A stretch of 45,256 bases of DNA from Escherichia phage bob: sequence record NC_073072.1; one strand, 5' to 3'. Positions 1,574 to 13,600 of the stretch are shown here, piece after piece (position 1 is the stretch's first letter; each line of letters begins with the position of its first letter). The notes below the pieces were generated by a model that worked only from the letters and a program-made list of their open reading frames with translations, was not told where the DNA came from and searched no databases. The translations under genes were made by a program, and so were the position numbers.

Positions 1574-2998
1574 ATGGCACGTTTCCGACGTCGCGAATAT
1601 CAGAAGTTGATAACCGCGTTCATCCTCAAGCATAAGCGATGTAATATATGGGCGACAATGGGATCCGGTAAAACCGGCGCGACAATGTGGGCGCTGAATA
1701 AAATGTTCCAGACTGGCGTCCTGTCCCATCATGAGGACCGCGTACTGGTGCTGGCCCCGCTGCGTGTTGCGTCCGGTACATGGCCCCCGGAGCAGGAGAA
1801 ATGGCGGTTCTCATCCCTGCTGGTCGTAGACGGCACCGGGCCGGAGAAGGACCGTATCGCAGCGCTTGAGAGCGACGCCAACGTGGTTTGTGTTAACTAT
1901 GATGTGGTTGAGTGGTTGGTTGACTATTACGGCGATGCGTGGCCCTTTACGGTCGTTGTTGCCGATGAATCGACTAAGCTGAAAGGCTATCGTAGCAAGC
2001 AGGGGAGCAAGCGCGCCCGCGCACTGGCAGCGATTGCACATAAACACGTCAAGCGCTGGATTAACCTTACCGGCACACCAGCGCCAAACGGGCTAAAAGA
2101 CTTATGGGGTCAGACGTGGTTTGTCGACGGTGGCGAACGCCTCGGCAGTAGCTATAAGGCATTTACCGACCGCTGGTTCATTAGCAAGCCTGTTAAGCCT
2201 GGCAGCTTCACTATGCAGCACGCTCCGCTAAAGAACTCCGAGAAAGAGATACAACAACGTCTGTCAGATGTATCCCTCACCGTTGACGCGGCGGAATACT
2301 TCGGGTGCGACAAGCCAATCTATACGCCGGTTGTTGTGGACCTGCCGAAGAAAGCGCGCAAGATTTATGACCAGTTTGAAAGCGAGCTATTTGCAGAACT
2401 GGAAAGCGGAACAGTGGAAGCGGCGAACGCGGCGTCGAAGACAATTAAGTGCCTTCAGCTTGCATCCGGGGCCGTGTATAAGGTGGACGAAGACGGCGAA
2501 CGGACCGACGAGTGGGTGAAGATTCACGACGCGAAGCTGGACGCGCTGGAAAGTATTGTGGAGGAGTTGAACGGAGCGCCGTTGCTCGTTGCGTATCAGT
2601 ATAAGCATGACCTGGCACGTCTTAAGAAGAAATTTCCGCACGGCGTTGCGTTGGGTAAAGGTAAGCAGGGCAATAAGGATATGGAAGCATGGAACAGGGG
2701 CGAGATCCCCATCATGTTTGCACACCCGGCATCGGCGGGCCACGGCCTTAACTTGCAGGACGGCGGTCATCACCTGGCAATCTTCTCCGACACCTGGAAC
2801 TTTGAGCACTTTTCGCAGATTGTGGAGCGTATCGGGCCGGTTCGACAGATGCAAGCCGGGCACCCCTGTCCGGTATTCGTCTACATTATCCAGGCGCGCG
2901 GGACACTGGACGAATTGGTCGCCGAGCGTCGCGACAGTAAGCGAGACATTCAGGACGACTTGATGGAATACATGAAAGCTAAAAAGGCGCGCAAATGA
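1574..2998 (+). CDS. SNF2/DEAD-like superfamily II DNA helicase
   Basis: Walker A ATMGSGKTGAT, motif II VVVADESTKLK, motif III LTGTPAPNG; 474 aa from ATG 1574. Confidence 0.85.
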   Translation: MARFRRREYQKLITAFILKHKRCNIWATMGSGKTGATMWALNKMFQTGVLSHHEDRVLVLAPLRVASGTWPPEQEKWRFSSLLVVDGTGPEKDRIAALESDANVVCVNYDVVEWLVDYYGDAWPFTVVVADESTKLKGYRSKQGSKRARALAAIAHKHVKRWINLTGTPAPNGLKDLWGQTWFVDGGERLGSSYKAFTDRWFISKPVKPGSFTMQHAPLKNSEKEIQQRLSDVSLTVDAAEYFGCDKPIYTPVVVDLPKKARKIYDQFESELFAELESGTVEAANAASKTIKCLQLASGAVYKVDEDGERTDEWVKIHDAKLDALESIVEELNGAPLLVAYQYKHDLARLKKKFPHGVALGKGKQGNKDMEAWNRGEIPIMFAHPASAGHGLNLQDGGHHLAIFSDTWNFEHFSQIVERIGPVRQMQAGHPCPVFVYIIQARGTLDELVAERRDSKRDIQDDLMEYMKAKKARK

Positions 2999-3690
2999 TA
3001 ATCTGGTCATTGTTTGACGGCAGCGGCTTGATGATTGAGCGTGCTGCCGAGATGGGGCATAAGTGCTACTGTTTTAACTACTCCGAAGCCGATCACGGGT
3101 CGTACCTGGACTACCGGATTTATGGTCGCGGGATCCGATATCGCAATGAGTTTATTGATCTGGACTTTGTAGACCGCGCGATGAATGGCGATTTCGGTAC
3201 GCCAGATATCATCTACGCATTCCCGCCGTGTACTGATCTGGCGGTGAGCGGTGCGCCAGCTTTCCCGCGCAAACGCGCCCGCGACCCGGCCTTCCAGCTT
3301 AAGGCGGTGCGCACCGCGAAGATCGCAGCTTACCTGGGTGACTTCTTCGAAGTGCCGTATATGATTGAGAATCCGCGCAGTGTGCTTTCCACACAGTGGC
3401 GTAAGCCAGACCACTCGTTTGATCCGTGGGAGTATGGCGGCTATCTGCCGGAGGATGACGTGCACCCGTTGTTCCCGGAATACATCAACGCGCGCGATTC
3501 ATATCCGAAGCGGACCTGCTTATGGACCGGCAACGGCTTTCGTATGCCAGAGAAAAAGCCTGTATTCGTTGAAAAAGGGTACTCGAAGCAGTATAGTCGC
3601 CTCGGAGGCAAATCAGCCCGCACAAAATTAATCCGGTCGCTCACTCCGCGCGGCTTCGCGATAGCGGTTAACGAGGAAAATTTAAAATGA
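2995..3690 (+). CDS. putative DNA (cytosine-5)-methyltransferase-like protein, minimal/divergent
   Basis: Motif I-like SLFDGSG, PC motif IIYAFPPCTDLAVSG (cf. FPCQxFSxxG), ENV-like YMIENPRSV; only 231 aa so target-recognition region is unclear. Confidence 0.5.
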   Translation: MIIWSLFDGSGLMIERAAEMGHKCYCFNYSEADHGSYLDYRIYGRGIRYRNEFIDLDFVDRAMNGDFGTPDIIYAFPPCTDLAVSGAPAFPRKRARDPAFQLKAVRTAKIAAYLGDFFEVPYMIENPRSVLSTQWRKPDHSFDPWEYGGYLPEDDVHPLFPEYINARDSYPKRTCLWTGNGFRMPEKKPVFVEKGYSKQYSRLGGKSARTKLIRSLTPRGFAIAVNEENLK

Positions 3691-4004
3691 CATTCGAAGC
3701 CATCGATTTTTCGGTTGCAATGACTAACCAGTTATTCTCCTACGACAGCAAAACCGGCGTCATTCGTCTGAAGTCCACCGGCTGCAAAATTGGCAACCTC
3801 AATACCGCCGATGGCGGAACACGTATCGAATACAACGGCAAGACGCTGTCTGGCGCACGCGTGGCGTGGATTATTGAGACGGGCAATACAATCCCTCCAG
3901 GCTTCGCAGTTGTGTGCCGCCAGCGCACTCCAGGGCACTACGGCAACCGCATAAGCAACCTTTACCTGGTAGACGTCGCACGCGACCCGAACTTTTATGC
4001 GTAA
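3687..4004 (+). CDS. HNH_3/NUMOD-like small protein, possibly degenerate homing-endonuclease-like
   Basis: TGVIRLKSTG...GTRIEYNGKTLSGARVAWIIETGNTIPPGFAVV..HYGNRISNLYLV resembles phage HNH_3 layout, but canonical His positions are not all evident. Confidence 0.4.
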   Translation: MTFEAIDFSVAMTNQLFSYDSKTGVIRLKSTGCKIGNLNTADGGTRIEYNGKTLSGARVAWIIETGNTIPPGFAVVCRQRTPGHYGNRISNLYLVDVARDPNFYA

Positions 4005-4031
4005 ATTGGTTGCATAATCATATTGGTTGCA
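4005..4031. promoter_or_regulatory. tandem pair of ATTGGTTGCA motifs
   Basis: ATTGGTTGCA at 4005-4014 and 4022-4031, intergenic; one of about 18 genome-wide copies of this 8-9-mer. Confidence 0.5.
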
Positions 4032-4040
4032 TTATCTTAA

Positions 4041-4072
4041 GGGTGTTCCGAAGGGAACGCCCTTTTTTTTTT
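4041..4072 (+). terminator. rho-independent terminator
   Basis: GGGTGTTCC-gaag-GGAACGCCC stem (one G-U pair) followed by T10. Confidence 0.65.
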
Positions 4073-4089
4073 AATATGAGGATTTGACG

Positions 4090-4332
4090 ATGAAACGATT
4101 CTTTTTAGATTACGACGGTGATTTGCGGTTATGGGTGTGCATGGTGCTGTTCTTATTCTTTTGTCTCCTGCTGCCGATTTCCTGCACGTATAACCTCGAT
4201 AAATATGAATGCCGTATTGTCTACGCAGAACTAACAGGTCGTAACACCCAGTGGCGCTATGGCACTTGCTGGGTTGAAATGGATGGTAAATTTATACCAC
4301 GCAAAGAAATTCGCATGACGGAGATTAAATAA
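4090..4332 (+). CDS. small membrane protein (80 aa)
   Basis: ATG 4090 with GAGGA 8 nt upstream; hydrophobic segment LWVCMVLFLFFCLLLPI. Confidence 0.5.
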   Translation: MKRFFLDYDGDLRLWVCMVLFLFFCLLLPISCTYNLDKYECRIVYAELTGRNTQWRYGTCWVEMDGKFIPRKEIRMTEIK

Positions 4333-4619
4333 TGAAAATTTTACAAGAAGAGAAAGCGTATTGGGTAGCACAGTGTCTTGAAGCCCGCGAACAGGCCGAA
4401 CGCGCGAACGCGCTGGCAAATACCTACCTGGCTAGCTATGAAGAAGAAGAGAAGGTCCGAAAGGAATTAGAGGAACGCTTCGAACTGCTGGGCGAACTGA
4501 TTACCATTATGCAGCGCACCGGATACACAACATCCGTATCGCTCACCCGGCTAACTGCCGAATGTCTGCGCGAGCATTGCAAACGGGCCGAGGCGTACGT
4601 GCGACCGAAGGGCCGCTAG
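4332..4619 (+). CDS. hypothetical protein (95 aa), predicted helical
   Basis: ATG overlaps upstream stop (TAATG); charged helical composition. Confidence 0.5.
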   Translation: MKILQEEKAYWVAQCLEAREQAERANALANTYLASYEEEEKVRKELEERFELLGELITIMQRTGYTTSVSLTRLTAECLREHCKRAEAYVRPKGR

Positions 4620-4782
4620 TCTAAGATCGACCGGAAAGATCTGGTGCTGATAGCGTGGCGGCACACATCAAACGGTGGTTATAGCACTGATATGCGCCCA
4701 ATGAGCGCCGAGGAGTCAAAGCGCGTCCAGCGCGTTATGAAAACCGGCAATAAAGTCCCTTTATACGCGATAGATCCAGGTC

Positions 4783-5268
4783 ATGCAGAAGAGTGAGCAA
4801 AAAGATAGCTGGCGCACGCCGCCAGCTTTATTCAAACCGCTGCGCCGTAAGTTCCGATTCCGTTACGATATGGCGGCAAGCGACGCCAACCATCTGCTAC
4901 CGCGTTACTTCACGGCAGAGCACAGCGCGCTTGATGTGGACTGGTCAGAGTTGAAAGGGTGGAAGTGGTGCAATCCGCCGTATTCCGATCCGCTGCCGTG
5001 GGTCGAGTGTGCAGCGCACGGACGCCGGACTGTCATGCTACTGAATCAGGACACGTCGACGAAGTGGGCGAAGCTGGCCCGGAAGACTGCAAACCTGATA
5101 ATTCTTCTGGACTGGCGGATTAGATTTATACACGCCGTCACCGGCGAAGTCGGGCCTAGCAATAACAAGTGCCAGCAATTGATAATCTTTGACGAAGCGC
5201 CACCCATCGGCAGCGCACAAATTGAAATAATGAGCGAAGGAGAACTCCTTGAATATCTTAATCGTTGA
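4783..5268 (+). CDS. phage-type DNA N6-adenine methyltransferase (Dam family)
   Basis: SWRTPPALF...RYDMAASDANHLLPRYFT...WKWCNPPYSDPLPWV: NPPY catalytic motif and the conserved WxTP N-terminus of the phage Dam family. Confidence 0.85.
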   Translation: MQKSEQKDSWRTPPALFKPLRRKFRFRYDMAASDANHLLPRYFTAEHSALDVDWSELKGWKWCNPPYSDPLPWVECAAHGRRTVMLLNQDTSTKWAKLARKTANLIILLDWRIRFIHAVTGEVGPSNNKCQQLIIFDEAPPIGSAQIEIMSEGELLEYLNR

Positions 5269-5473
5269 CCGCGACCCTGCGGTAGTAGACCGAATGCAAA
5301 GAGACTATAACATCGACCCACGCCGCGATCGTGTGAAGCGAGTGTCACGTCCGGAATATATCCTGGGTCTGGACCTTACCGGCTGGCTTGTCATAACCGC
5401 AAATTGGCATCTTGTGTGTAACAAGTTTTCCGCCAGAGTTGTTCGTTCGGATTTGGTTGAGGAATTAAAATGA
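5249..5473 (+). CDS. hypothetical protein (TTG start), translationally coupled between Dam and HAD genes
   Basis: AAGGAG RBS 7 nt upstream of TTG 5249; stop overlaps ATG of next gene; overlaps Dam 3' end by 20 nt. Confidence 0.35.
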   Translation: MNILIVDRDPAVVDRMQRDYNIDPRRDRVKRVSRPEYILGLDLTGWLVITANWHLVCNKFSARVVRSDLVEELK

Positions 5474-5940
5474 AACTACTGATTTGTGATTTGGATGGCG
5501 TCATTAACGGTTCAAGCGATGCGCGTGCCGACCTGGTGCCAGGTATAAAAACCAAATCAACATTTTGGGCGAAGTGGCACAAAGCGCATGTACGCGAAGA
5601 CCTTAACATGGATATGCTGCCGCTGTTGAGCATGTATAAAGAGCAAGGCTTCGAGATCGCGTATCTGACAAACCGGCAGCGAGAATGCTGGGAGACTACC
5701 GTCGAGCAATTGGAAGTATTCCCCGTAGGCCGGTTGTTTATGCGCCACATGCTGGACGATACCCCGCCGCCAGTGTTTAAAGCGTGCGCCGTGTTCAAAA
5801 TGGTCTGCTATGCGGACGTATCGGAACTGGTCATCATTGAAGACTGTCCGAAGAACATCGCGGCCATTCGACGGGCGTGCAGCGATCTGGTCCCGAAAAT
5901 TTATGCGATAAACGTTGCAAAATTTACTTGCAACCAATAG
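5470..5940 (+). CDS. HAD-superfamily hydrolase (putative nucleotidase/phosphatase)
   Basis: N-terminal HAD motif I LICDLDGVI; 156 aa. Confidence 0.6.
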   Translation: MKLLICDLDGVINGSSDARADLVPGIKTKSTFWAKWHKAHVREDLNMDMLPLLSMYKEQGFEIAYLTNRQRECWETTVEQLEVFPVGRLFMRHMLDDTPPPVFKACAVFKMVCYADVSELVIIEDCPKNIAAIRRACSDLVPKIYAINVAKFTCNQ

Positions 5941-6563: not shown

Positions 6564-7139
6564 ATGTACGGCGAATACGAAATATCTGGTAAACAATTCC
6601 ACCTGGCGGCAATGATCGCAAGCATCGAGTTTGACCAGTGGAGATACAAGTCTGACGCGTGCAAGCAAAGCCGTCTTGTCGGTGTGCTGGGCGAGATGTT
6701 TGCGGGCATGTACCTCGAGGGTCAGGCGGGCGGGCGTAGTTGTATCCCGCAAGGCTTGCTCATGCGTACCGGCTTGTTCAGCGCCAATACCATCGACCGC
6801 GGCGATATCATCATGGTCGGTAAGCGCAAGGTTAAATCCGGCACCGACTTCCGCGAGCATGTGATCGATGCCGTCTGGACCTACGAGGTTAAAGCCACCA
6901 GCGGCATTCGCCGCGGACTGGTTGAGGCACGTTGCGCTCGCGAGTATCTTGCCCGTCGAGTTGCTGGTGTTATCCTGGTGAGCGTAGATTTCGGACAACA
7001 TAACGCGCACGGCGTGATTGAAGATATCGCGGAACCATACGTCATCGTTAATGACTGGCCCTTAGTGGAAGTTGAGGGCAAGGAATATTACGAAAGCCCG
7101 CTAGTACGGCGCAAAATGGACTGGGAAAACTCAAACTAG
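6564..7139 (+). CDS. hypothetical protein; possible PD-(D/E)xK-like motif
   Basis: ATG 6564 with GAGGA 7 nt upstream; HVIDAVWTYEVKAT resembles D...ExK; function unverified. Confidence 0.5.
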   Translation: MYGEYEISGKQFHLAAMIASIEFDQWRYKSDACKQSRLVGVLGEMFAGMYLEGQAGGRSCIPQGLLMRTGLFSANTIDRGDIIMVGKRKVKSGTDFREHVIDAVWTYEVKATSGIRRGLVEARCAREYLARRVAGVILVSVDFGQHNAHGVIEDIAEPYVIVNDWPLVEVEGKEYYESPLVRRKMDWENSN

Positions 7140-7141
7140 AA

Positions 7142-7175
7142 AAAGGGGCCGCATGGCCCCTTCTATTTATTTCTT
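7142..7175. terminator. bidirectional terminator between convergent genes
   Basis: AAAAA-GGGGCC-gcat-GGCCCC-TTCTATTTATTT. Confidence 0.6.
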
Positions 7176-9332
7176 CAACGCCGCGATCTCGGCCTTCAAA
7201 TCCTCCACCTGCTTATTGAGATATTGAACACACCCCATCAAGTCCATTACGATCGGGTTAACGTCGATGGATGGGCGGTCCGTCATCTTCTCCCCGATCT
7301 TGTTGCCGTCTTCGTCGAGAATATCCTCGATCGGGAACTCGTGGTGCTTAACGTACTGCGGCGCAATTAACTCCGCTTCTTCGGCGATAATACCGAAGCG
7401 CTGGCGGGCCTGCTCATCATCCTTATACACGAAGTTAACAAGGCGCTGGCTGTTAATGCGGTCCATAGCTTCGCTTGCGTCCGCATCGGCTATATCTTTC
7501 TTATACTCGCGGCCGGATGTGCCTTGCAGCGCGATAGTCCCCGATGCGGTAGTCGGGAAGTTAAGCATAATTTCGCCGGTACGGTTCCCATCCTTACGTC
7601 GCATAAACAGGCGAAAATATCGAGTGCCGCTCTTTTCTAGTGCCGGTTCGAAGAACGTCCTACCGCCTACGACGTCGTTCGGCACGGTTTCGCCTACGGT
7701 GTAGTACGGTTCGAATGCAAATTGCAGGTAAGACCCGCGGCTTACTGCCAGGCTACCAACGACATCTGACCCTGAACTGTTCACCGTAAACTTGCCCGGC
7801 AAGGTCATCTCGCCTTTGGTGTTAAAGTCGATGCCTGAACTCTGCGCCGTCTCCAGGTTAGTGATCGCCAGGCGGGCGTAAGTCTCACCGTCGATATTCG
7901 CACGGACGCGCAGCTTTGCTTCCGAGTGTAAAGAAGTGCCAACACGATATTCAGACACAATGCTTCCGCCGTCTGCCGTAGTGCCCGCTGGCGGTTTAGT
8001 GGCGTCGCCGTTGATTACCGACCACGATGTGTTAGCGGCAACAAATCCGCCTGACGCTCGAATAACCCACACGCCCATGAAGTTATTCGGGCGCAACTCC
8101 GATACGGTCCGCCCGTAGATCGCGTTTACCTTCGAGGCGTCCATGTTAATGATGCCGTATGATTCCGCGCCGTTACTAACAGTTAGCCCGCCTGGCGATC
8201 GATATTGCGAAGCCGCACCGCCAGCCCCCCGGAACGCGCCACTTGCACCGTTGATAATACTTGCTGACCCGCCGCCGTGTAATTCGATGCGGCCTGTGAT
8301 GTTAGGTGCTCCTGATTCGTAGATATACCCATCGTTGCCACTTTGCCCGCCGTCACCCCGGCAGAACAAGCCGAATATTGACCCAGGCTGAACGCCATTA
8401 CGGTCCGGCACTCGGAAGGTAGTTGTGCCGTCACCCGTAGAATACTTTCCGCGCTGATTTGGGTTTGCCAGCCAGGTCTCGTCACTAATTGGCGACAGCA
8501 TTTGCGCATACGCCCAAAGCTCAGGCCAATCCGCTCGGTTTAACAATTGACCATCGGACACCACTTCGTAAGGTTGAATATACGCGCGGCTGTCCCGTAA
8601 ATGGAAATCACCTACGCCATAGTTCATGACGCCGTTCATTGTAGGGCCGACAGTGCCGGTGTTGATCAGATTCTGCACCCAGCGCTTTGTCGTGGCGTCG
8701 TAGTCACCAACAGGGTCGCCGGCCAGTGGTGTTGCCCCGTCCGGGCGAACGTTAAGCCAGGCTTGCGGTTTGTCGGTGAGTCCCGCCAGGTTGCCTGATT
8801 TTGTTAGCAAGTTATCCGCGTTAACGCTTTGCGCCCACTCCTCGGCCTGATCGCGGAATCCCTGCGCGGCGGATTTCGATGCTTCGGCTTGCGCTGCGAG
8901 GTCGCGCATCTCAACGGGGTCTACGTTCTTAAGCAATTCCGACAGGTATCCCCATGACATTCCCTGCATGACTTGCCCGTTAGGTAACGTCACTGTGATT
9001 TCTTCAGCGTCGCCGAAGATTGCGCGCCAGTTGTTTTCATCTGCGATCATCAAGCGCAACGCTTTCTGCGCCTGTACTGTTACGCCCATCGTTGCCAGCG
9101 ACATGGTATCGCGCTTAACGCCATCCCACGCAAGGCCGGTTGCCGTTGGGCCGTCGAACGGCAACACCAGCGTAAGCGCCGTGTTACTTTCGATTGATGC
9201 GATCGCCACTGTGTAAGGCACTTGTCCTACCACCAGCGTTAAGAAGTCGCCAGCTTTAAACGCGGTAAACGTTGTGCCGACTCCTACTACCGCCGTGCTA
9301 TTGTTCGTTACGGATAGCGTACCCGCTGCCAT
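7167..9332 (-). CDS. tail fibre/tailspike with C-terminal intramolecular chaperone (peptidase S74-like) domain
   Basis: 721 aa; Gly-rich central region; C-terminus ...GTSGREYKKDIADADASEAMDRINSQRLVNFVYKDDEQARQRFGIIAEEAELIAPQYV... fits the self-cleaving chaperone domain pattern; GAGGA RBS. Confidence 0.8.
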   Translation of the reverse strand: MAAGTLSVTNNSTAVVGVGTTFTAFKAGDFLTLVVGQVPYTVAIASIESNTALTLVLPFDGPTATGLAWDGVKRDTMSLATMGVTVQAQKALRLMIADENNWRAIFGDAEEITVTLPNGQVMQGMSWGYLSELLKNVDPVEMRDLAAQAEASKSAAQGFRDQAEEWAQSVNADNLLTKSGNLAGLTDKPQAWLNVRPDGATPLAGDPVGDYDATTKRWVQNLINTGTVGPTMNGVMNYGVGDFHLRDSRAYIQPYEVVSDGQLLNRADWPELWAYAQMLSPISDETWLANPNQRGKYSTGDGTTTFRVPDRNGVQPGSIFGLFCRGDGGQSGNDGYIYESGAPNITGRIELHGGGSASIINGASGAFRGAGGAASQYRSPGGLTVSNGAESYGIINMDASKVNAIYGRTVSELRPNNFMGVWVIRASGGFVAANTSWSVINGDATKPPAGTTADGGSIVSEYRVGTSLHSEAKLRVRANIDGETYARLAITNLETAQSSGIDFNTKGEMTLPGKFTVNSSGSDVVGSLAVSRGSYLQFAFEPYYTVGETVPNDVVGGRTFFEPALEKSGTRYFRLFMRRKDGNRTGEIMLNFPTTASGTIALQGTSGREYKKDIADADASEAMDRINSQRLVNFVYKDDEQARQRFGIIAEEAELIAPQYVKHHEFPIEDILDEDGNKIGEKMTDRPSIDVNPIVMDLMGCVQYLNKQVEDLKAEIAALKK

Positions 9333-10661: not shown

Positions 10662-13600
10662 TTACCAATAACCTGTGATTTCACCAATTTGCACGCGGAG
10701 CACGCCGTTTCCGTCCCTAACGCTGATTTGCGTGTTTGTCTGTTTCATCCCGCCACCGTTACCGGTTCCCAGGTTGATAAACGTTCCGTCTTTCCCTAAG
10801 CGCCAACCACGCGAGTAGCCGTCATAGTTATTCGATTGCAACGTGTCCGTAATCTGCGCGAAGTTGATAGTCGCGTCTTTGATGCGTGCCGTGTCAATAT
10901 ACACCGCGCCGCCGTCTACGATAAACGCGGACGAAAGCGACCCGTTAGATGGGTGCATGATGTAGAACTGGTCCGCTTTGAATGCGATGCGGGATTTAAC
11001 CGCGCCGCCTTCCGCCACGACGGAAAGCTGCATACCGGCATCATAGTAAGTCCCGTTATACGTCACGCCCGCCTTAAGGCTGTACGTGGCGTTGCCACCA
11101 GCATGGTTAAACGTGGACGTCATCTTCTGCTCGATAGCTGCGGACTGCTGACCGAACTGTGCCGCGACCTGGGTCTTGTACTCCGCCAGCGCGCCCGCTA
11201 CGTCTGCCGTTGCCGTTTGTACCTGCTGGATGGCAGCTTCCTGTTCCCCGAACTTAGCGGCAACAGTTTGCTGGTACTGGGCGAAGGCTTGCTCGTGCGT
11301 GCTTTGCGCTGTCTGCAACGTGTGGATCGCCGCTTCCGCATCGTCAAGTCGCGTGCCGATCAACGTCTCCAGTTGAGCGACCGCCTTGTGGGCGTCCGCC
11401 GCCACGTTATACGCCACCTTGATTTCCGCATAAATGCCCTTGTACTCGGCGCGGGCGTTGAACAATTGCTGCGCGTCGGTGAGCATCGCCTCGTAAATAC
11501 CCTGCGGGATCGTGTCGATTGCTTCCTGGAAGCGTTTACCATCCTCGGAAGTCAAGAACTCGTCATCAAGCCCCTTCATGTACTCGTCAACTTTGTCACT
11601 CACCTGCCCTTCAAACGGGGCCGACCAGTCCGACAGGTTGCCGATTTTATCCGCTACACGGGCGCGCAACTGCTGGTAAATTCCGAACTCCAGCGATGTT
11701 TGCGCATACTCCGCCCCCGGATATGGGACGTTGGTAAGGAATTTCCATTCAGTCTCACCGGTCTTGCGCACTTCAAGCTCGGTGTACGAGATATCAGTAG
11801 CGGCGTTGTTGTGGTTCCACTTCCACAAGATCTGGTGAAGGCCCGAAATAGCGTTGGTGATGATTGGTGCGTTAAGCCCACCGAGACGACCTTCCACCGG
11901 CGTGATGGCGGACGACACCCACGGAGATGAAATCTCGCCCATACCGATCGCGCGGACGCGTGCCTGGTAGTTACCGGAGAACACGTTAGGGATGTGCGCC
12001 CCATTCGACGCCGTGCGTGGGATATTCACCCAGTCGTTACCCCACTGGATTTCCATATTCTGAAGGCTGGTACGCCTCCACTGGATTTCATACACCACGG
12101 CATCCTTCACCGGAGGGAATACAATATCCACGTTGGTGATTAGCTGCCCTTGCGATGAAATCTGCGACGGGGTGATGGTCACGGATTCCGGCCCCTTCAT
12201 TACCCCGTCAGGCACTTGCGTAAAGATACCCGGATCAAGGCGCGCGCCATTATCAACGGCATCATACTTGCTATCGTTGTACTCAATCCCGCGCACCGAG
12301 AAAGTGCTCGTAGAGTCGTCATACTCCAGGTCGGTGATGCGGAATTTCTGCAACTGGATATCGTCGCCATCAACGCAAAACGGCTGGTCAGGAATAGGGT
12401 TGGCGTCCAGTGCGGTTTTTAGCGTTACCTTGTTGCCGTTGACGCTGGCGATCTCGCGAGTCTCCACATTACCGCTATCGGTGCGTACCAGGAACTTATC
12501 GCCAGGGCGGAACGTGATTTCGCTGTCCGTGTTCAGCACAGTACGCGTCCCCGGATCAGACAACAGACGTCCGCCGCGTGTCTCGAAGCCGCCAGAAATA
12601 TTAGTATCCGCGATCGCGACTACGCTACCAGGAATAAAGAATAACCCTTCCATGCCAACTTTAAAGCTAACTTGCTGGTCAAGCTGGTTGGAAATTAGCG
12701 CCCAGTGCCCGCGGCGTTGCGCTTCAGATTCACGCGTACAGCCGATCGCCGTAATATCGAGGCGGTTAATCTTATGGCGGCGCACCAGTTCGACGCGCTG
12801 GCCCGTTGCAATGGCGTCCTCGTAGTGGTTCTTCGGGTTGCCGTATGCTACCGCGAATGTTGAGTACCGAGTTTTCTGGCTTCCCGAGGCATAGTCGAAT
12901 CGCCCATCAATGACCGAGGCGTTGGTGATAGTGTGCGACACCGCGGCGACCGGCTGGTCACTGACGATATTTAACATCTGATTGCCCCACCAGGTCATTC
13001 CGGCGAAGATGGCAGCCAAATCCTTAAGCACGGTCCAGGCGTCGGTCTGCGACTGAATGTACATATCATTCTTAAATCGGATCTCCCGCCCGCCGTTGCC
13101 GTCACTGACCAGCTGATCGCAGCGCTGCGCAATCTGGTAAAGCGCGTATCGGTTTAGCATTTGCGGTTTGATACGACGACCGAGGCCAAAGCGCTCAGTA
13201 ATACAAATATCGTACCAGTGCCACGCAGGGTTATCCGTCCATGCGCGTTTAAACGTGCCGTCCCAGTCCCCGGAATAAGTATGATTAATCGGGTCGTAGT
13301 TGTTCGGTATTAGAACTTTGCGGCCTTTGCACTTGATGGACACGCGCGGGATGTTCTGGAACGCTTTGGCGTCGAACTCCACAAACAACAGCGCGGTTAG
13401 CGGGTAACGCAGGCGGGCGTCGATAATCTCAGTGATGGACTGCACCCGGATATCATTAACCACTTTCGCCGATGTGGAGTCTGCCGTTATGCGGTGCACC
13501 TCCACGCGCCAGCCGGTGTTAACGTTCGGAGGTAATTCGATGCGGTGGTCGCGCTCATACAGCGACATTGTTTTACCAACGGCGGCGAATCTGAACTCAC

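What the first reader, a model, noticed from the sequence alone, without database searches (positions are those of the whole stretch)
2995..5268. Two DNA methyltransferases of different specificity classes in the early region
A minimal C5-cytosine-MTase-like protein (SLFDGSG, FPPC, ENP motifs; 2995..3690) and a phage-type N6-adenine MTase (NPPY; 4783..5268) lie within 2.3 kb, together with an HNH-like ORF and a HAD-like hydrolase. Orphan methyltransferases in phages usually give broad anti-restriction protection. The Dcm-like protein is unusually short (231 aa), so its target recognition and activity are uncertain.
Basis: partly seen in the sequence, partly recalled or inferred. Interest (0 to 1): 0.45.

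Follow-up and report, generated by a model that had tools for sequence, protein, structure and literature searches.

The report
Two orphan phage DNA methyltransferases (known)
This E. coli phage (genus Dhillonvirus) carries a very small cytosine-C5 methyltransferase and a small adenine-N6 methyltransferase, both real and conserved but already annotated in over a hundred related phages, and a relative of the cytosine enzyme has been tested experimentally.

Summary
ORF 2995-3690 (231 aa) and ORF 4783-5268 (161 aa) exist with the quoted motifs, and an HNH-like ORF and a HAD-like ORF lie between and after them.

The window is a Dhillonvirus genome. The same gene order is already annotated as "Dcm-like" and "Dam-like" methyltransferases in BASEL phage Oekolampad and many other records.

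The 161-aa protein is a PF05869 phage Dam, 30% identical to the GATC-specific T1 Dam. Both genes are under strong purifying selection.

The targets CCWGG and GATC are inferred, not shown. "Broad anti-restriction protection" is not supported. Verdict: ordinary, already known, low interest.

The parts
1574..2998 (+). SNF2-family DNA helicase (context). Its stop codon overlaps the Dcm-like start codon (ATGA).
   Evidence: Pfam SNF2-rel_dom 1.9e-10. A 1425-bp 'DNA helicase' CDS sits at the same position in Oekolampad and Sponge. Sequence at 2995-2998.
2995..3690 (+). Mini C5-cytosine DNA methyltransferase ('Dcm-like', 231 aa). Motif I is F7-G9-G11, motif IV is P77-P78-C79, motif VI is E125-N126-P127, and K172 is invariant. 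Motif IX is R214-S-L-T-P-R-G220. No motif X counterpart was found.
3687..4004 (+). HNH_3-like ORF (105 aa), translationally coupled to the Dcm-like gene by a 4-bp overlap. Probably a degenerate homing-endonuclease relative.
   Evidence: phrog_99 2.6e-16 covering only profile positions 108-198 of 383. Pfam HNH_3 13.2 bits against a 24.8 cut-off. No PDB sequence hit. dN/dS 0.14-0.31. By eye, the positions where HNH_3 has His read 'GARVAW' and 'VVCRQ'.
4039..4064 (+). Terminator-like GC-rich hairpin followed by a run of 10 T, lying between the HNH-like ORF and the next gene.
   Evidence: This is a consensus match only.
4090..4332 (+). Small hydrophobic protein of unknown function (80 aa from the ATG used in relatives). 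Absent from phage Gluttony.
   Evidence: phrog_18961 9e-49..
4332..4796 (+). Gene of unknown function (phrog_10530, 154 aa in relatives). Here it is interrupted by an in-frame amber codon at 4617-4619 (CAG to TAG).
4783..5268 (+). Small N6-adenine DNA methyltransferase of the phage 'Dam' family PF05869 (161 aa). The catalytic motif NPPY is at residues 64-67.
5249..5473 (+). 74-aa ORF of unknown function. It overlaps both neighbouring genes.
   Evidence: phrog_10685 8.9e-46. Annotated in relatives.
5470..5940 (+). HAD-superfamily phosphatase-like protein (156 aa), similar to the phosphatase part of phage polynucleotide kinase/phosphatase.
   Evidence: phrog_415 2e-36. Pfam Acid_phosphat_B 24.9 bits against a cut-off of 27. 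DLDGV motif at residues 7-11. Annotated 'putative phosphatase' in Oekolampad.

Best explanation
These are two stand-alone (orphan) phage DNA methyltransferases in the DNA-metabolism gene block of a Dhillonvirus.

The 231-aa protein is a member of a large phage family of minimal C5-cytosine methyltransferases. It uses the standard covalent mechanism: Cys79 of the PPC loop attacks C6 of a flipped-out cytosine, Glu125 of ENP protonates N3, and the methyl group comes from SAM bound at the FxGxG loop. The most likely target is the inner cytosine of CCWGG, the same as host Dcm.

The 161-aa protein is a minimal PF05869 'phage Dam'. It uses its NPPY motif to methylate adenine N6, most likely in GATC, the same as host Dam and T1 Dam.

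Together they would keep fast-replicating phage DNA fully marked with the host-like Dam/Dcm pattern, whatever the host genotype. This would protect only against nucleases blocked by those two marks. It comes at the price of exposing the phage to defences that sense the methylation, such as retron Ec86/Eco1.

Shown here: enzyme class, fold, conserved catalytic motifs, family membership, conservation and purifying selection. Shown in the literature for homologues: 5mC formation (K42 Dcm) and GATC methylation (T1 Dam). Inferred: the target sequences and the biological role of the two window proteins.
For: Identity of the phage and synteny: about 92% nucleotide identity to Dhillonviruses, with the same gene order annotated as Dcm-like and Dam-like.

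Dcm-like protein:
- phrog_757 8e-83.
- Motifs I, IV and VI are invariant.
- AlphaFold pLDDT 90.6, pTM 0.89.
- Four homologues pass the PF00145 cut-off over motifs I-IV.
- 54% identity over the full length to KarlJaspers bas06_0055. That gene is 711 bp, and by my count of the Warwickvirus homologue and the alignment its C82, E128 and K175/K176 match the numbering of the published K42 Dcm.
- K42 Dcm raises 5mC on Ec86 msDNA by LC-MS, and mutating the CCTGG site in the msDNA abolishes defence.
- KP36 carries a 44%-identical homologue. Its DNA has 155 EcoRII sites left uncut and 302 DpnI sites cut (PMC3620542).

Dam-like protein:
- PF05869 8.4e-36.
- T1 Dam is PF05869 at 1.7e-70 and is 30% identical to the window protein.
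- T1 Dam methylates GATC in a dam- host, and deleting it removes the mark and lowers burst size (PMC10470545).

Both genes: dN/dS 0.01-0.07. CCWGG (161 sites) is not depleted (O/E 1.0-1.4) and GATC (162 sites) is at most mildly depleted (O/E 0.77-0.93) in the window.
Against: The Dcm-like protein itself has no Pfam, NCBIfam, PADLOC or PDB sequence hit. Its link to canonical C5-MTases therefore rests on motifs, a predicted structure and its homologues.

The transfer of target specificity is weak. Residues about 186-202, inside the short segment that stands in for the target-recognition domain, read 'GYSKQYSRL' in the window but 'DNPGWAKT' in KarlJaspers/K42 and something else again in KP36.

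In the K42 study the CCWGG site was assumed from host Dcm and tested only through msDNA mutants. The dcm+ host MG1655 did not trigger the retron by itself, so the phage enzyme may differ from host Dcm in site or efficiency.

The KP36 digests are confounded by host Dam and Dcm.

The Dam-like protein is only 30% identical to T1 Dam, lacks T1's roughly 50-aa N-terminal extension, and scores below the TIGR01712 equivalog cut-off (87.6 against 97.05).

Site counts close to expectation are compatible with methylation but do not demonstrate it.
Confidence: 0.75

Rival explanations
1. The Dcm-like enzyme is an active C5-methyltransferase, but its target is not CCWGG. It might recognise a shorter or degenerate site, the outer cytosine, or hairpin/single-stranded DNA. 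The reason would be that its recognition segment is very short and differs from that of the tested K42 enzyme.
For: Only about 34 residues lie between the last core strand and motif IX (DSSP). The loop at 186-202 falls into at least three sequence types across the family. Host Dcm in MG1655 does not trigger Ec86 while the phage enzyme does. No direct methylome exists for any member in the literature I could search.
Against: Replacing either C of CCTGG in the msDNA abolished defence against K42. These phages are isolated and grown on K-12 MG1655. From general knowledge, K-12 has McrBC, which cuts at purine-5mC, so a 5mC pattern other than pyrimidine-5mC would probably be restricted. KP36 DNA is fully EcoRII-resistant.
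Confidence: 0.2
2. The main role of both enzymes is not protection from restriction. Instead they keep phage DNA fully methylated for the phage's own replication, packaging or repair evasion, for example by avoiding MutH cleavage at unmethylated GATC.
For: Deleting T1 dam lowers burst size by about 40% even without any restriction system and in a dam+ host, and host Dam only partly methylates T1 DNA (PMC10470545). BASEL found no simple link between methyltransferase genes and restriction resistance. dN/dS is very low for both genes.
Against: The Dcm-like gene is dispensable. Teewinot carries a natural internal deletion, and K42 escape mutants that lose it are viable. No mechanism for a 5mC requirement is known. 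This rival concerns the role only and is compatible with the enzymology of the best explanation.
Confidence: 0.3
3. The Dcm-like protein transfers something other than a methyl group, for example a carboxymethyl group from carboxy-SAM made by host CmoA, as phage CmoX does.
Confidence: 0.03
4. The 231-aa protein is a catalytically dead remnant, or it acts on RNA like DNMT2.
Against: All catalytic motifs are invariant across 30 diverse members. dN/dS is 0.02-0.04. The homologue methylates DNA in vivo, and its active-site mutant does not.
Confidence: 0.03

Closest known systems
Phage K42 / KarlJaspers (Bas06) 'Dcm-like C5 cytosine methyltransferase', the trigger of retron Ec86 (Eco1)
   Same: Same family and architecture. 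The two proteins are 54% identical over the full length, E 4e-87. They are 231 and 236 aa long. The motif I, PPC, ENP, YPK and RSLTPRGFA elements are the same. Both are stand-alone genes in small E. coli siphoviruses.
   Different: The loop at about 186-202 in the recognition segment is a different sequence type. K176 of K42 is Arg173 here. The genomic neighbourhood differs: here the gene follows the SNF2 helicase and precedes an HNH-like ORF, while in KarlJaspers it sits among small hypothetical genes. No experiment exists for the Dhillonvirus protein.
Canonical bacterial and eukaryotic C5-MTases (M.HhaI, E. coli Dcm, DNMT3A/3B; Pfam PF00145)
   Different: No sequence-level hit to PF00145 or to any PDB chain. 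A family profile finds only 1919 representatives among 1.84 billion, so it does not appear to reach the canonical enzymes. The protein is about 100 residues shorter than M.HhaI. Only about 34 residues lie where the target-recognition domain should be. A conserved roughly 30-residue insert sits between the last two core strands. The protein ends about 10 residues after motif IX, so motif X (GN[S/A]V), which closes the SAM pocket in HhaI, has no counterpart.
Phage T1 Dam (YP_003925.1) and other PF05869 phage Dam proteins (HP1, VT2/Stx phages)
   Same: Same Pfam family and the same (N/D)PPY motif. Both are stand-alone phage genes. The window protein is 30% identical to T1 Dam and about 37% identical to the Dam of Stx-converting phages.
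   Different: 161 aa against 237 aa. It lacks T1's roughly 50-aa N-terminal extension and an internal insertion of about 15 aa. It is below the TIGR01712 equivalog cut-off. Its close subfamily is narrow, with 16 clusters found by the word-indexed search, essentially Dhillonvirus. GATC specificity is untested.
Host E. coli Dam and Dcm
   Same: Probably the same target sequences and the same chemical marks.
   Different: There is no detectable sequence relationship for Dam, which belongs to a different permutation class. The relationship to Dcm is only motif-level: E. coli Dcm is 472 aa, with a full recognition domain and motif X.

Membership tests
C5-cytosine DNA methyltransferase superfamily (PF00145-type) | Motif I FxGxG (SAM binding) | tested here: met
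   F7-D-G9-S-G11 is invariant in 30 family members. It aligns to HhaI F18-x-G20-x-G22.
C5-cytosine DNA methyltransferase superfamily (PF00145-type) | Motif IV Pro-Cys with the catalytic cysteine | tested here: met
   P77-P78-C79 is invariant. It aligns to HhaI P80-C81.
C5-cytosine DNA methyltransferase superfamily (PF00145-type) | Motif VI ENV (Glu that protonates N3) | tested here: met
   E125-N126-P127 is invariant. It is placed on HhaI 'MENV' in the extended hhalign alignment, which has low confidence.
C5-cytosine DNA methyltransferase superfamily (PF00145-type) | Motif VIII QxRxR | tested here: inconclusive
   There is no QxRxR. An invariant K172 in 'YPK(K/R)T' lies just before the last core strand. 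The equivalent K175/K176 were among the four residues mutated in the inactive K42 protein. No residue-level structural superposition was available.
C5-cytosine DNA methyltransferase superfamily (PF00145-type) | Motif IX (R-x-L-T/H-P-R-E) | tested here: met
   R214-S-L-T-P-R-G220 is invariant. Compare E. coli Dcm 'RRLTPRECA' and HhaI 'RKLHPRECA'.
C5-cytosine DNA methyltransferase superfamily (PF00145-type) | Motif X (GN[S/A]V helix completing the SAM pocket) | tested here: not met
   The protein ends 11 residues after motif IX. The hhalign alignment stops at HhaI residue 289, before the FGNSV of motif X. In most full-length family representatives the match likewise ends within about 15 residues of the C-terminus. 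This rests on sequence only.
C5-cytosine DNA methyltransferase superfamily (PF00145-type) | Score above Pfam PF00145 gathering threshold | tested here: not met
   No hit at E<=0.1 for the window protein. Homologues P0023, P0026, P0059 and P0018 pass, at 22.8-28.5 bits against a cut-off of 22, over motifs I-IV only.
C5-cytosine DNA methyltransferase superfamily (PF00145-type) | C5-MTase fold | tested here: met
C5-cytosine DNA methyltransferase superfamily (PF00145-type) | SAM-dependent formation of 5-methylcytosine in DNA | not testable with these tools
   Reported for the K42 homologue by LC-MS (bioRxiv 10.1101/2023.08.16.553469). Not tested for this protein.
Phage mini-Dcm family (phrog_757; K42/KarlJaspers Dcm) | Full-length similarity and about 225-250 aa architecture | tested here: met
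   phrog_757 8e-83 over residues 1-229. 54% identity to bas06_0055. The 120 listed homologues are mostly 225-260 aa.
Phage mini-Dcm family (phrog_757; K42/KarlJaspers Dcm) | CCWGG target | not testable with these tools
   Only indirect evidence exists: msDNA site mutants for K42, EcoRII resistance of KP36 DNA, and no CCWGG depletion in the window.
Phage N6-adenine methyltransferase 'Dam' (PF05869 / TIGR01712) | Score above Pfam gathering threshold | tested here: met
   123.6 bits against 28.1, E 8.4e-36, covering profile positions 5-151 of 169.
Phage N6-adenine methyltransferase 'Dam' (PF05869 / TIGR01712) | (D/N)PP(Y/F) catalytic motif IV | tested here: met
   N64-P65-P66-Y67. P66 and Y67 are invariant, N64 and P65 nearly so.
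Phage N6-adenine methyltransferase 'Dam' (PF05869 / TIGR01712) | NCBIfam equivalog cut-off (TIGR01712) | tested here: not met
   87.6 bits against a cut-off of 97.05.
Phage N6-adenine methyltransferase 'Dam' (PF05869 / TIGR01712) | GATC specificity | not testable with these tools
   Shown for T1 Dam, which is 30% identical (PMC10470545). Not shown for this protein.
Restriction-modification system | Cognate restriction endonuclease next to the methyltransferase | tested here: not met
   Neighbouring genes are a helicase, a short HNH_3-like ORF, small ORFs and a phosphatase. The Dam-like protein's best PADLOC hit is an 'orphan methyltransferase' model, with weaker hits to type II MTase models. 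The Dcm-like protein hits no PADLOC model.
HNH_3 homing endonuclease (ORF 3687-4004) | Pfam threshold and catalytic His residues | tested here: not met
   13.2 bits against 24.8. Only 105 aa, matching a part of phrog_99. By eye, the expected His positions read Ala/Cys. This is inference.
HAD-superfamily phosphatase (ORF 5470-5940) | DxDx(T/V) motif I and family score | tested here: inconclusive
   D7-L-D9-G-V is present. phrog_415 2e-36. Pfam Acid_phosphat_B 24.9 bits is just under the cut-off of 27.

The most novel reading that the evidence does not exclude
The roughly 230-aa phage mini-Dcm family is a structurally distinct kind of C5-methyltransferase. It works without motix X... corrected: without motif X and with only about 34 residues in place of a recognition domain. 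Its sequence subtypes, which differ in the 186-202 loop, may have different or relaxed targets. Under this reading the Dhillonvirus enzyme does not simply copy host Dcm. That would explain why the phage enzyme, but not host Dcm, triggers retron Ec86.
Probability: 0.2. Interest if true: 0.45.

Novelty: already known. Interest (0 to 1): 0.15.

Why it matters
The finding matters little as a discovery. The two genes are already annotated in GenBank. The Dcm-like protein is 99.6% identical to that of phage JLBYU37, and the Dam-like protein is 100% identical to that of phage Sponge. Homologues of both have been tested experimentally.

It has some practical value. A phage with these genes is predicted to resist nucleases that are blocked by Dam or Dcm methylation. 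It is also predicted to be vulnerable to hosts carrying retron Ec86/Eco1, such as E. coli BL21. Both points are relevant when choosing or engineering therapeutic phages.

One modest open question remains. How does a 231-aa enzyme that seems to lack motif X, and has almost no recognition domain, bind SAM and read a 5-bp site? No structure or methylome exists for this family.

Tried and rejected
1. Sequence searches of the Dcm-like protein against Pfam, NCBIfam, PADLOC and PDB found nothing meaningful, whether run with the single sequence or with a 30-sequence profile. The only hit was a chance match to kinase ToxD at E 0.7. The link to C5-MTases had to come from structure prediction and fold search.

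2. hhalign of the family against M.HhaI (my recalled sequence was verified as 100% identical to 10mh_A) gave a confident alignment only for motifs I-IV. The extended alignment covering motifs VI and IX has low statistical support, E 0.03. I could not obtain model coordinates, so no residue-level superposition was possible. The assignment of motif VIII stays open.

3. I considered whether the HNH-like ORF might be a specificity partner of the mini-methyltransferase, because it is translationally coupled. I rejected this. K42 Dcm works alone in E. coli. KarlJaspers and KP36 have no such neighbour. Teewinot keeps the HNH-like ORF while its Dcm-like gene is deleted.

4. I considered whether the Dam-like protein belongs to the non-specific adenine methyltransferases (Hia5/Hin1523). 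I rejected this. Those enzymes have FxGxG plus DPPY and a recognition region of about 90 residues, so they look like a different family (PMC3299994); I did not compare the sequences directly.

5. Counting restriction-site words in the window showed no avoidance of CCWGG and only mild depletion of GATC. This is compatible with methylation but not diagnostic.

6. Longer family members with N-terminal extensions (P0247, P0275, P0276 and others) gave no Pfam domain that would hint at function. The exception was one fusion to HNH_2.

7. Literature searches found no methylome or restriction-digest study of any Dhillonvirus.

Full report
**What the window is.** The 3.5 kb around the finding is 88-95% identical in nucleotide sequence to more than 130 Escherichia phages of the genus Dhillonvirus (HK578-like small siphoviruses of about 45 kb). 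The gene order is the same in these relatives: helicase, 231-aa gene, about 105-aa gene, small gene, about 154-aa gene, 161-aa gene, 74-aa gene, then a 156-aa gene. In BASEL phage Oekolampad (Bas18) the two genes of interest are annotated as "Dcm-like C5 cytosine methyltransferase" and "Dam-like N6-adenine methyltransferase". In phage Sponge the annotation is similar. The Dcm-like protein is 99.6% identical to that of phage JLBYU37. The Dam-like protein is 100% identical to that of Sponge.

**Check of the observation.** All four ORFs exist at the stated coordinates, with the stated motifs.
- The 231-aa ORF matches phrog_757 "DNA methyltransferase" at 8e-83.
- The 161-aa ORF matches Pfam PF05869 "Dam" at 8.4e-36, well above threshold.
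- The 105-aa ORF matches only a part of the HNH phrog_99 and is below threshold for Pfam HNH_3.
- The 156-aa ORF matches phrog_415 and has a HAD motif I (DLDGV), but falls just under the Pfam cut-off.

The genes are tightly packed. The helicase and Dcm-like genes overlap by 4 bp (ATGA), as do the Dcm-like and HNH-like genes. A strong terminator-like hairpin with a T-run lies at 4039-4064, between the HNH-like ORF and the next gene. The two methyltransferases may therefore be in different transcription units. This is a consensus match only. Both methyltransferase genes are under strong purifying selection. Against other Dhillonviruses, dN/dS is 0.01-0.07 at dS up to 0.4.

**The 231-aa protein: family.** It has no hit in Pfam, NCBIfam or PADLOC, and none among PDB sequences, even with a 30-sequence profile. 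Even so, it belongs to a very large family:
- 2896 clusters at 90% identity in the metagenome-scale database, nearly all 225-260 aa long.
- 1919 representatives at 50% identity in an exhaustive HMMER scan.
- 1511 of 50,697 phage records, including phages annotated as Drexlerviridae (T1-like, Webervirus), rV5-like phages and Krischvirus, and phages of Klebsiella, Salmonella, Vibrio and other hosts.

A count of 1919, rather than a far larger one, suggests that the family profile does not reach the canonical C5-methyltransferases. The family is sharply delimited. Four members do pass the PF00145 threshold, but only over motifs I-IV.

- F7-x-G9-S10-G11 (motif I)
- P77-P78-C79 (motif IV, the catalytic Cys)
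- E125-N126-P127 (motif VI)
- K172
- R214-S-L-T-P-R-G220

The last element corresponds to motif IX, which reads "RRLTPRECA" in E. coli Dcm and "RKLHPRECA" in HhaI. The protein ends 11 residues later. This holds for most full-length family representatives. The GN(S/A)V helix of motif X, which helps form the SAM pocket in HhaI, therefore has no counterpart. Only about 34 residues lie between the last core strand and motif IX, where canonical enzymes carry their target-recognition domain. These last points rest on sequence alignment and the secondary-structure string. I could not obtain model coordinates for a residue-level superposition.

**Experimental knowledge about the family.** A bioRxiv preprint (10.1101/2023.08.16.553469) isolated escape mutants of phage K42, a KarlJaspers-like Drexlerviridae phage, on retron Ec86.
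- All four escapers disrupted, or carried a mutation just upstream of, a 711-bp "Dcm-like C5 cytosine methyltransferase" gene.
- Expressing the gene alone was toxic only in the presence of the retron.
- LC-MS showed raised 5mC on the msDNA with the wild-type protein, but not with a C82A/E128A/K175A/K176A mutant.
- Changing the CCTGG site in the msDNA stem-loop abolished defence.
- 34 of 35 Ec86-sensitive phages encoded such a Dcm.

I fetched KarlJaspers. Its bas06_0055 is 711 bp, and my count on the alignments places C82, E128 and K175/K176 as in the published K42 numbering. It is 54% identical to the window protein over the full length, E 4e-87.

A second, indirect piece of evidence comes from Klebsiella phage KP36. 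Its gp74 is 44% identical to the window protein. KP36 DNA was reported to be uncut at all 155 EcoRII sites and cut by DpnI (PMC3620542). The authors of that paper believed KP36 had no cytosine methyltransferase gene and credited the host. Host Dcm remains a confounder.

**Caveat on specificity.** The loop at about 186-202, inside the short recognition segment, comes in several sequence types. It reads "GYSxQ...LGGKS" in the window and most members, "DNPGW" in KarlJaspers/K42, and something else in KP36. In the K42 work the CCWGG site was assumed from host Dcm. The dcm+ host MG1655 did not itself activate the retron. I therefore rate CCWGG as the most likely target for the window enzyme, at roughly 60%, but not as established. 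The window has 161 CCWGG sites, with an observed/expected ratio of 1.0-1.4, so there is no avoidance. From general knowledge, these phages grow on McrBC-positive K-12, which argues for a pyrimidine-5mC context such as C-5mC-WGG.

Its close subfamily is small, with 16 clusters that are essentially Dhillonvirus. tblastn finds weaker relatives in 1688 phage records. These include Stx-converting phages at about 37% identity and T1-like phages at about 30%. T1 Dam (YP_003925.1) is PF05869 at 1.7e-70 and is 30% identical to the window protein. T1 DNA from a dam- host is GATC-methylated. A T1 dam deletion loses the mark and has a burst about 40% smaller even in a dam+ host, and host Dam only partly methylates T1 DNA (PMC10470545). 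The window protein lacks T1's N-terminal extension and one insertion, and it is below the TIGR01712 equivalog cut-off. GATC is therefore likely but unproven. The window has 162 GATC sites, observed/expected 0.77-0.93.

**How it most likely works.** After infection, the two enzymes use host SAM to place 5mC (probably at CCWGG) and m6A (probably at GATC) on replicating phage DNA. This completes a host-like Dam/Dcm pattern that the host enzymes cannot finish on fast-replicating DNA, or cannot make at all in dam- or dcm- hosts such as E. coli B. The benefit is protection against nucleases blocked by these marks. From general knowledge these include EcoRII-type enzymes for CCWGG and MboI/DpnII-type enzymes for GATC. 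There may also be a restriction-independent gain in burst size, as seen for T1.

The cost is exposure to defences that sense the marks, such as retron Ec86/Eco1. Consistent with such a trade-off, the Dcm-like gene is dispensable. One natural Dhillonvirus, Teewinot, has an internal deletion that leaves only a 186-bp ORF. The protection is narrow, not broad. BASEL describes Dhillonvirus phages as less resistant to type I and II restriction-modification systems than Queuovirinae phages. It also saw no simple link between methyltransferase genes and resistance in the related Drexlerviridae (PMC8594841).

**Rivals.**
- A non-CCWGG or relaxed target for the Dcm-like enzyme is the main open alternative (about 0.2).
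- A mainly non-defensive role is compatible with the same enzymology (about 0.3 as a co-function).
- Use of carboxy-SAM, as in phage CmoX (PMC12783734), is unlikely. 5mC was detected for the homologue, and the Arg that determines CmoX selectivity lies in motif X, which is absent here.
- An inactive or RNA-directed protein is unlikely given the invariant motifs, the purifying selection and the homologue data.

**Verdict.** "Broad anti-restriction" is not supported, and the idea that the short length puts activity in doubt is answered by the homologue data. The feature is already known and annotated, so interest is low. The one point a specialist might still find worthwhile is structural and biochemical. 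A widespread family of about 230-aa C5-methyltransferases appears to do without motif X and has almost no recognition domain. No structure or direct methylome exists for it.

Noticed in passing
It could be a real nonsense mutation in a dispensable gene, a sequencing error, or a mutation tolerated in supE hosts, which insert Gln at UAG. The nearest database copies of this gene are only about 91% identical.
   Followed up: partly
L007 (Escherichia phage Teewinot, OK499993) 2986-3171: This is a natural Dhillonvirus in which most of the Dcm-like gene is deleted. Only a 186-bp ORF with the C-terminal 24% of the protein remains. The HNH-like ORF and the Dam-like gene are intact. It resembles the laboratory retron-escape deletions reported for phage K42.
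   Followed up: partly
window 3687-4004: The 'HNH-like' ORF is only 105 aa and matches just the middle of the HNH phrog. By eye, it has Ala/Cys where HNH_3 domains have their His residues ('GARVAW', 'VVCRQ'). It is kept under moderate constraint (dN/dS 0.14-0.31). It is probably a degenerate, non-cutting relative of homing endonucleases.
   Followed up: partly
window 4039-4064: A strong terminator-like hairpin (11-bp stem, 6 GC pairs) followed by 10 T lies between the HNH-like ORF and the next gene. It suggests that the Dcm-like and Dam-like genes are in separate transcription units.
   Followed up: no
L009 (Klebsiella phage KP36, NC_029099) 11553-12245, minus strand: KP36 gp74 (230 aa) is a member of the mini-Dcm family, 44% identical to the window protein. 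A 2013 paper stated that KP36 has no cytosine methyltransferase gene and attributed the complete EcoRII resistance of its DNA to host Dcm. The phage gene may be responsible instead. KP36 has 'PSC' rather than 'PPC' in motif IV.
   Followed up: partly
alignment A1, window residues about 186-202 (window 3550-3600): The mini-Dcm family splits into sequence subtypes in the loop before 'LGGKS'. The types are 'GYSxQ', 'DNPGW' and others. Model confidence is lower in this region. It is a candidate specificity determinant.
   Followed up: no
window 4084-4332; L006 (phage Gluttony): The small hydrophobic ORF (80-82 aa, phrog_18961) between the terminator-like hairpin and the amber-interrupted gene is absent from the phage Gluttony locus examined. 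This makes the stretch between the two methyltransferase genes a variable spot.
   Followed up: no
window 7141-7164: A hairpin that scores as terminator-like on both strands lies where the + strand DNA-metabolism block (ending at 7139) meets the - strand tail-fibre gene (7167-9332).
   Followed up: no
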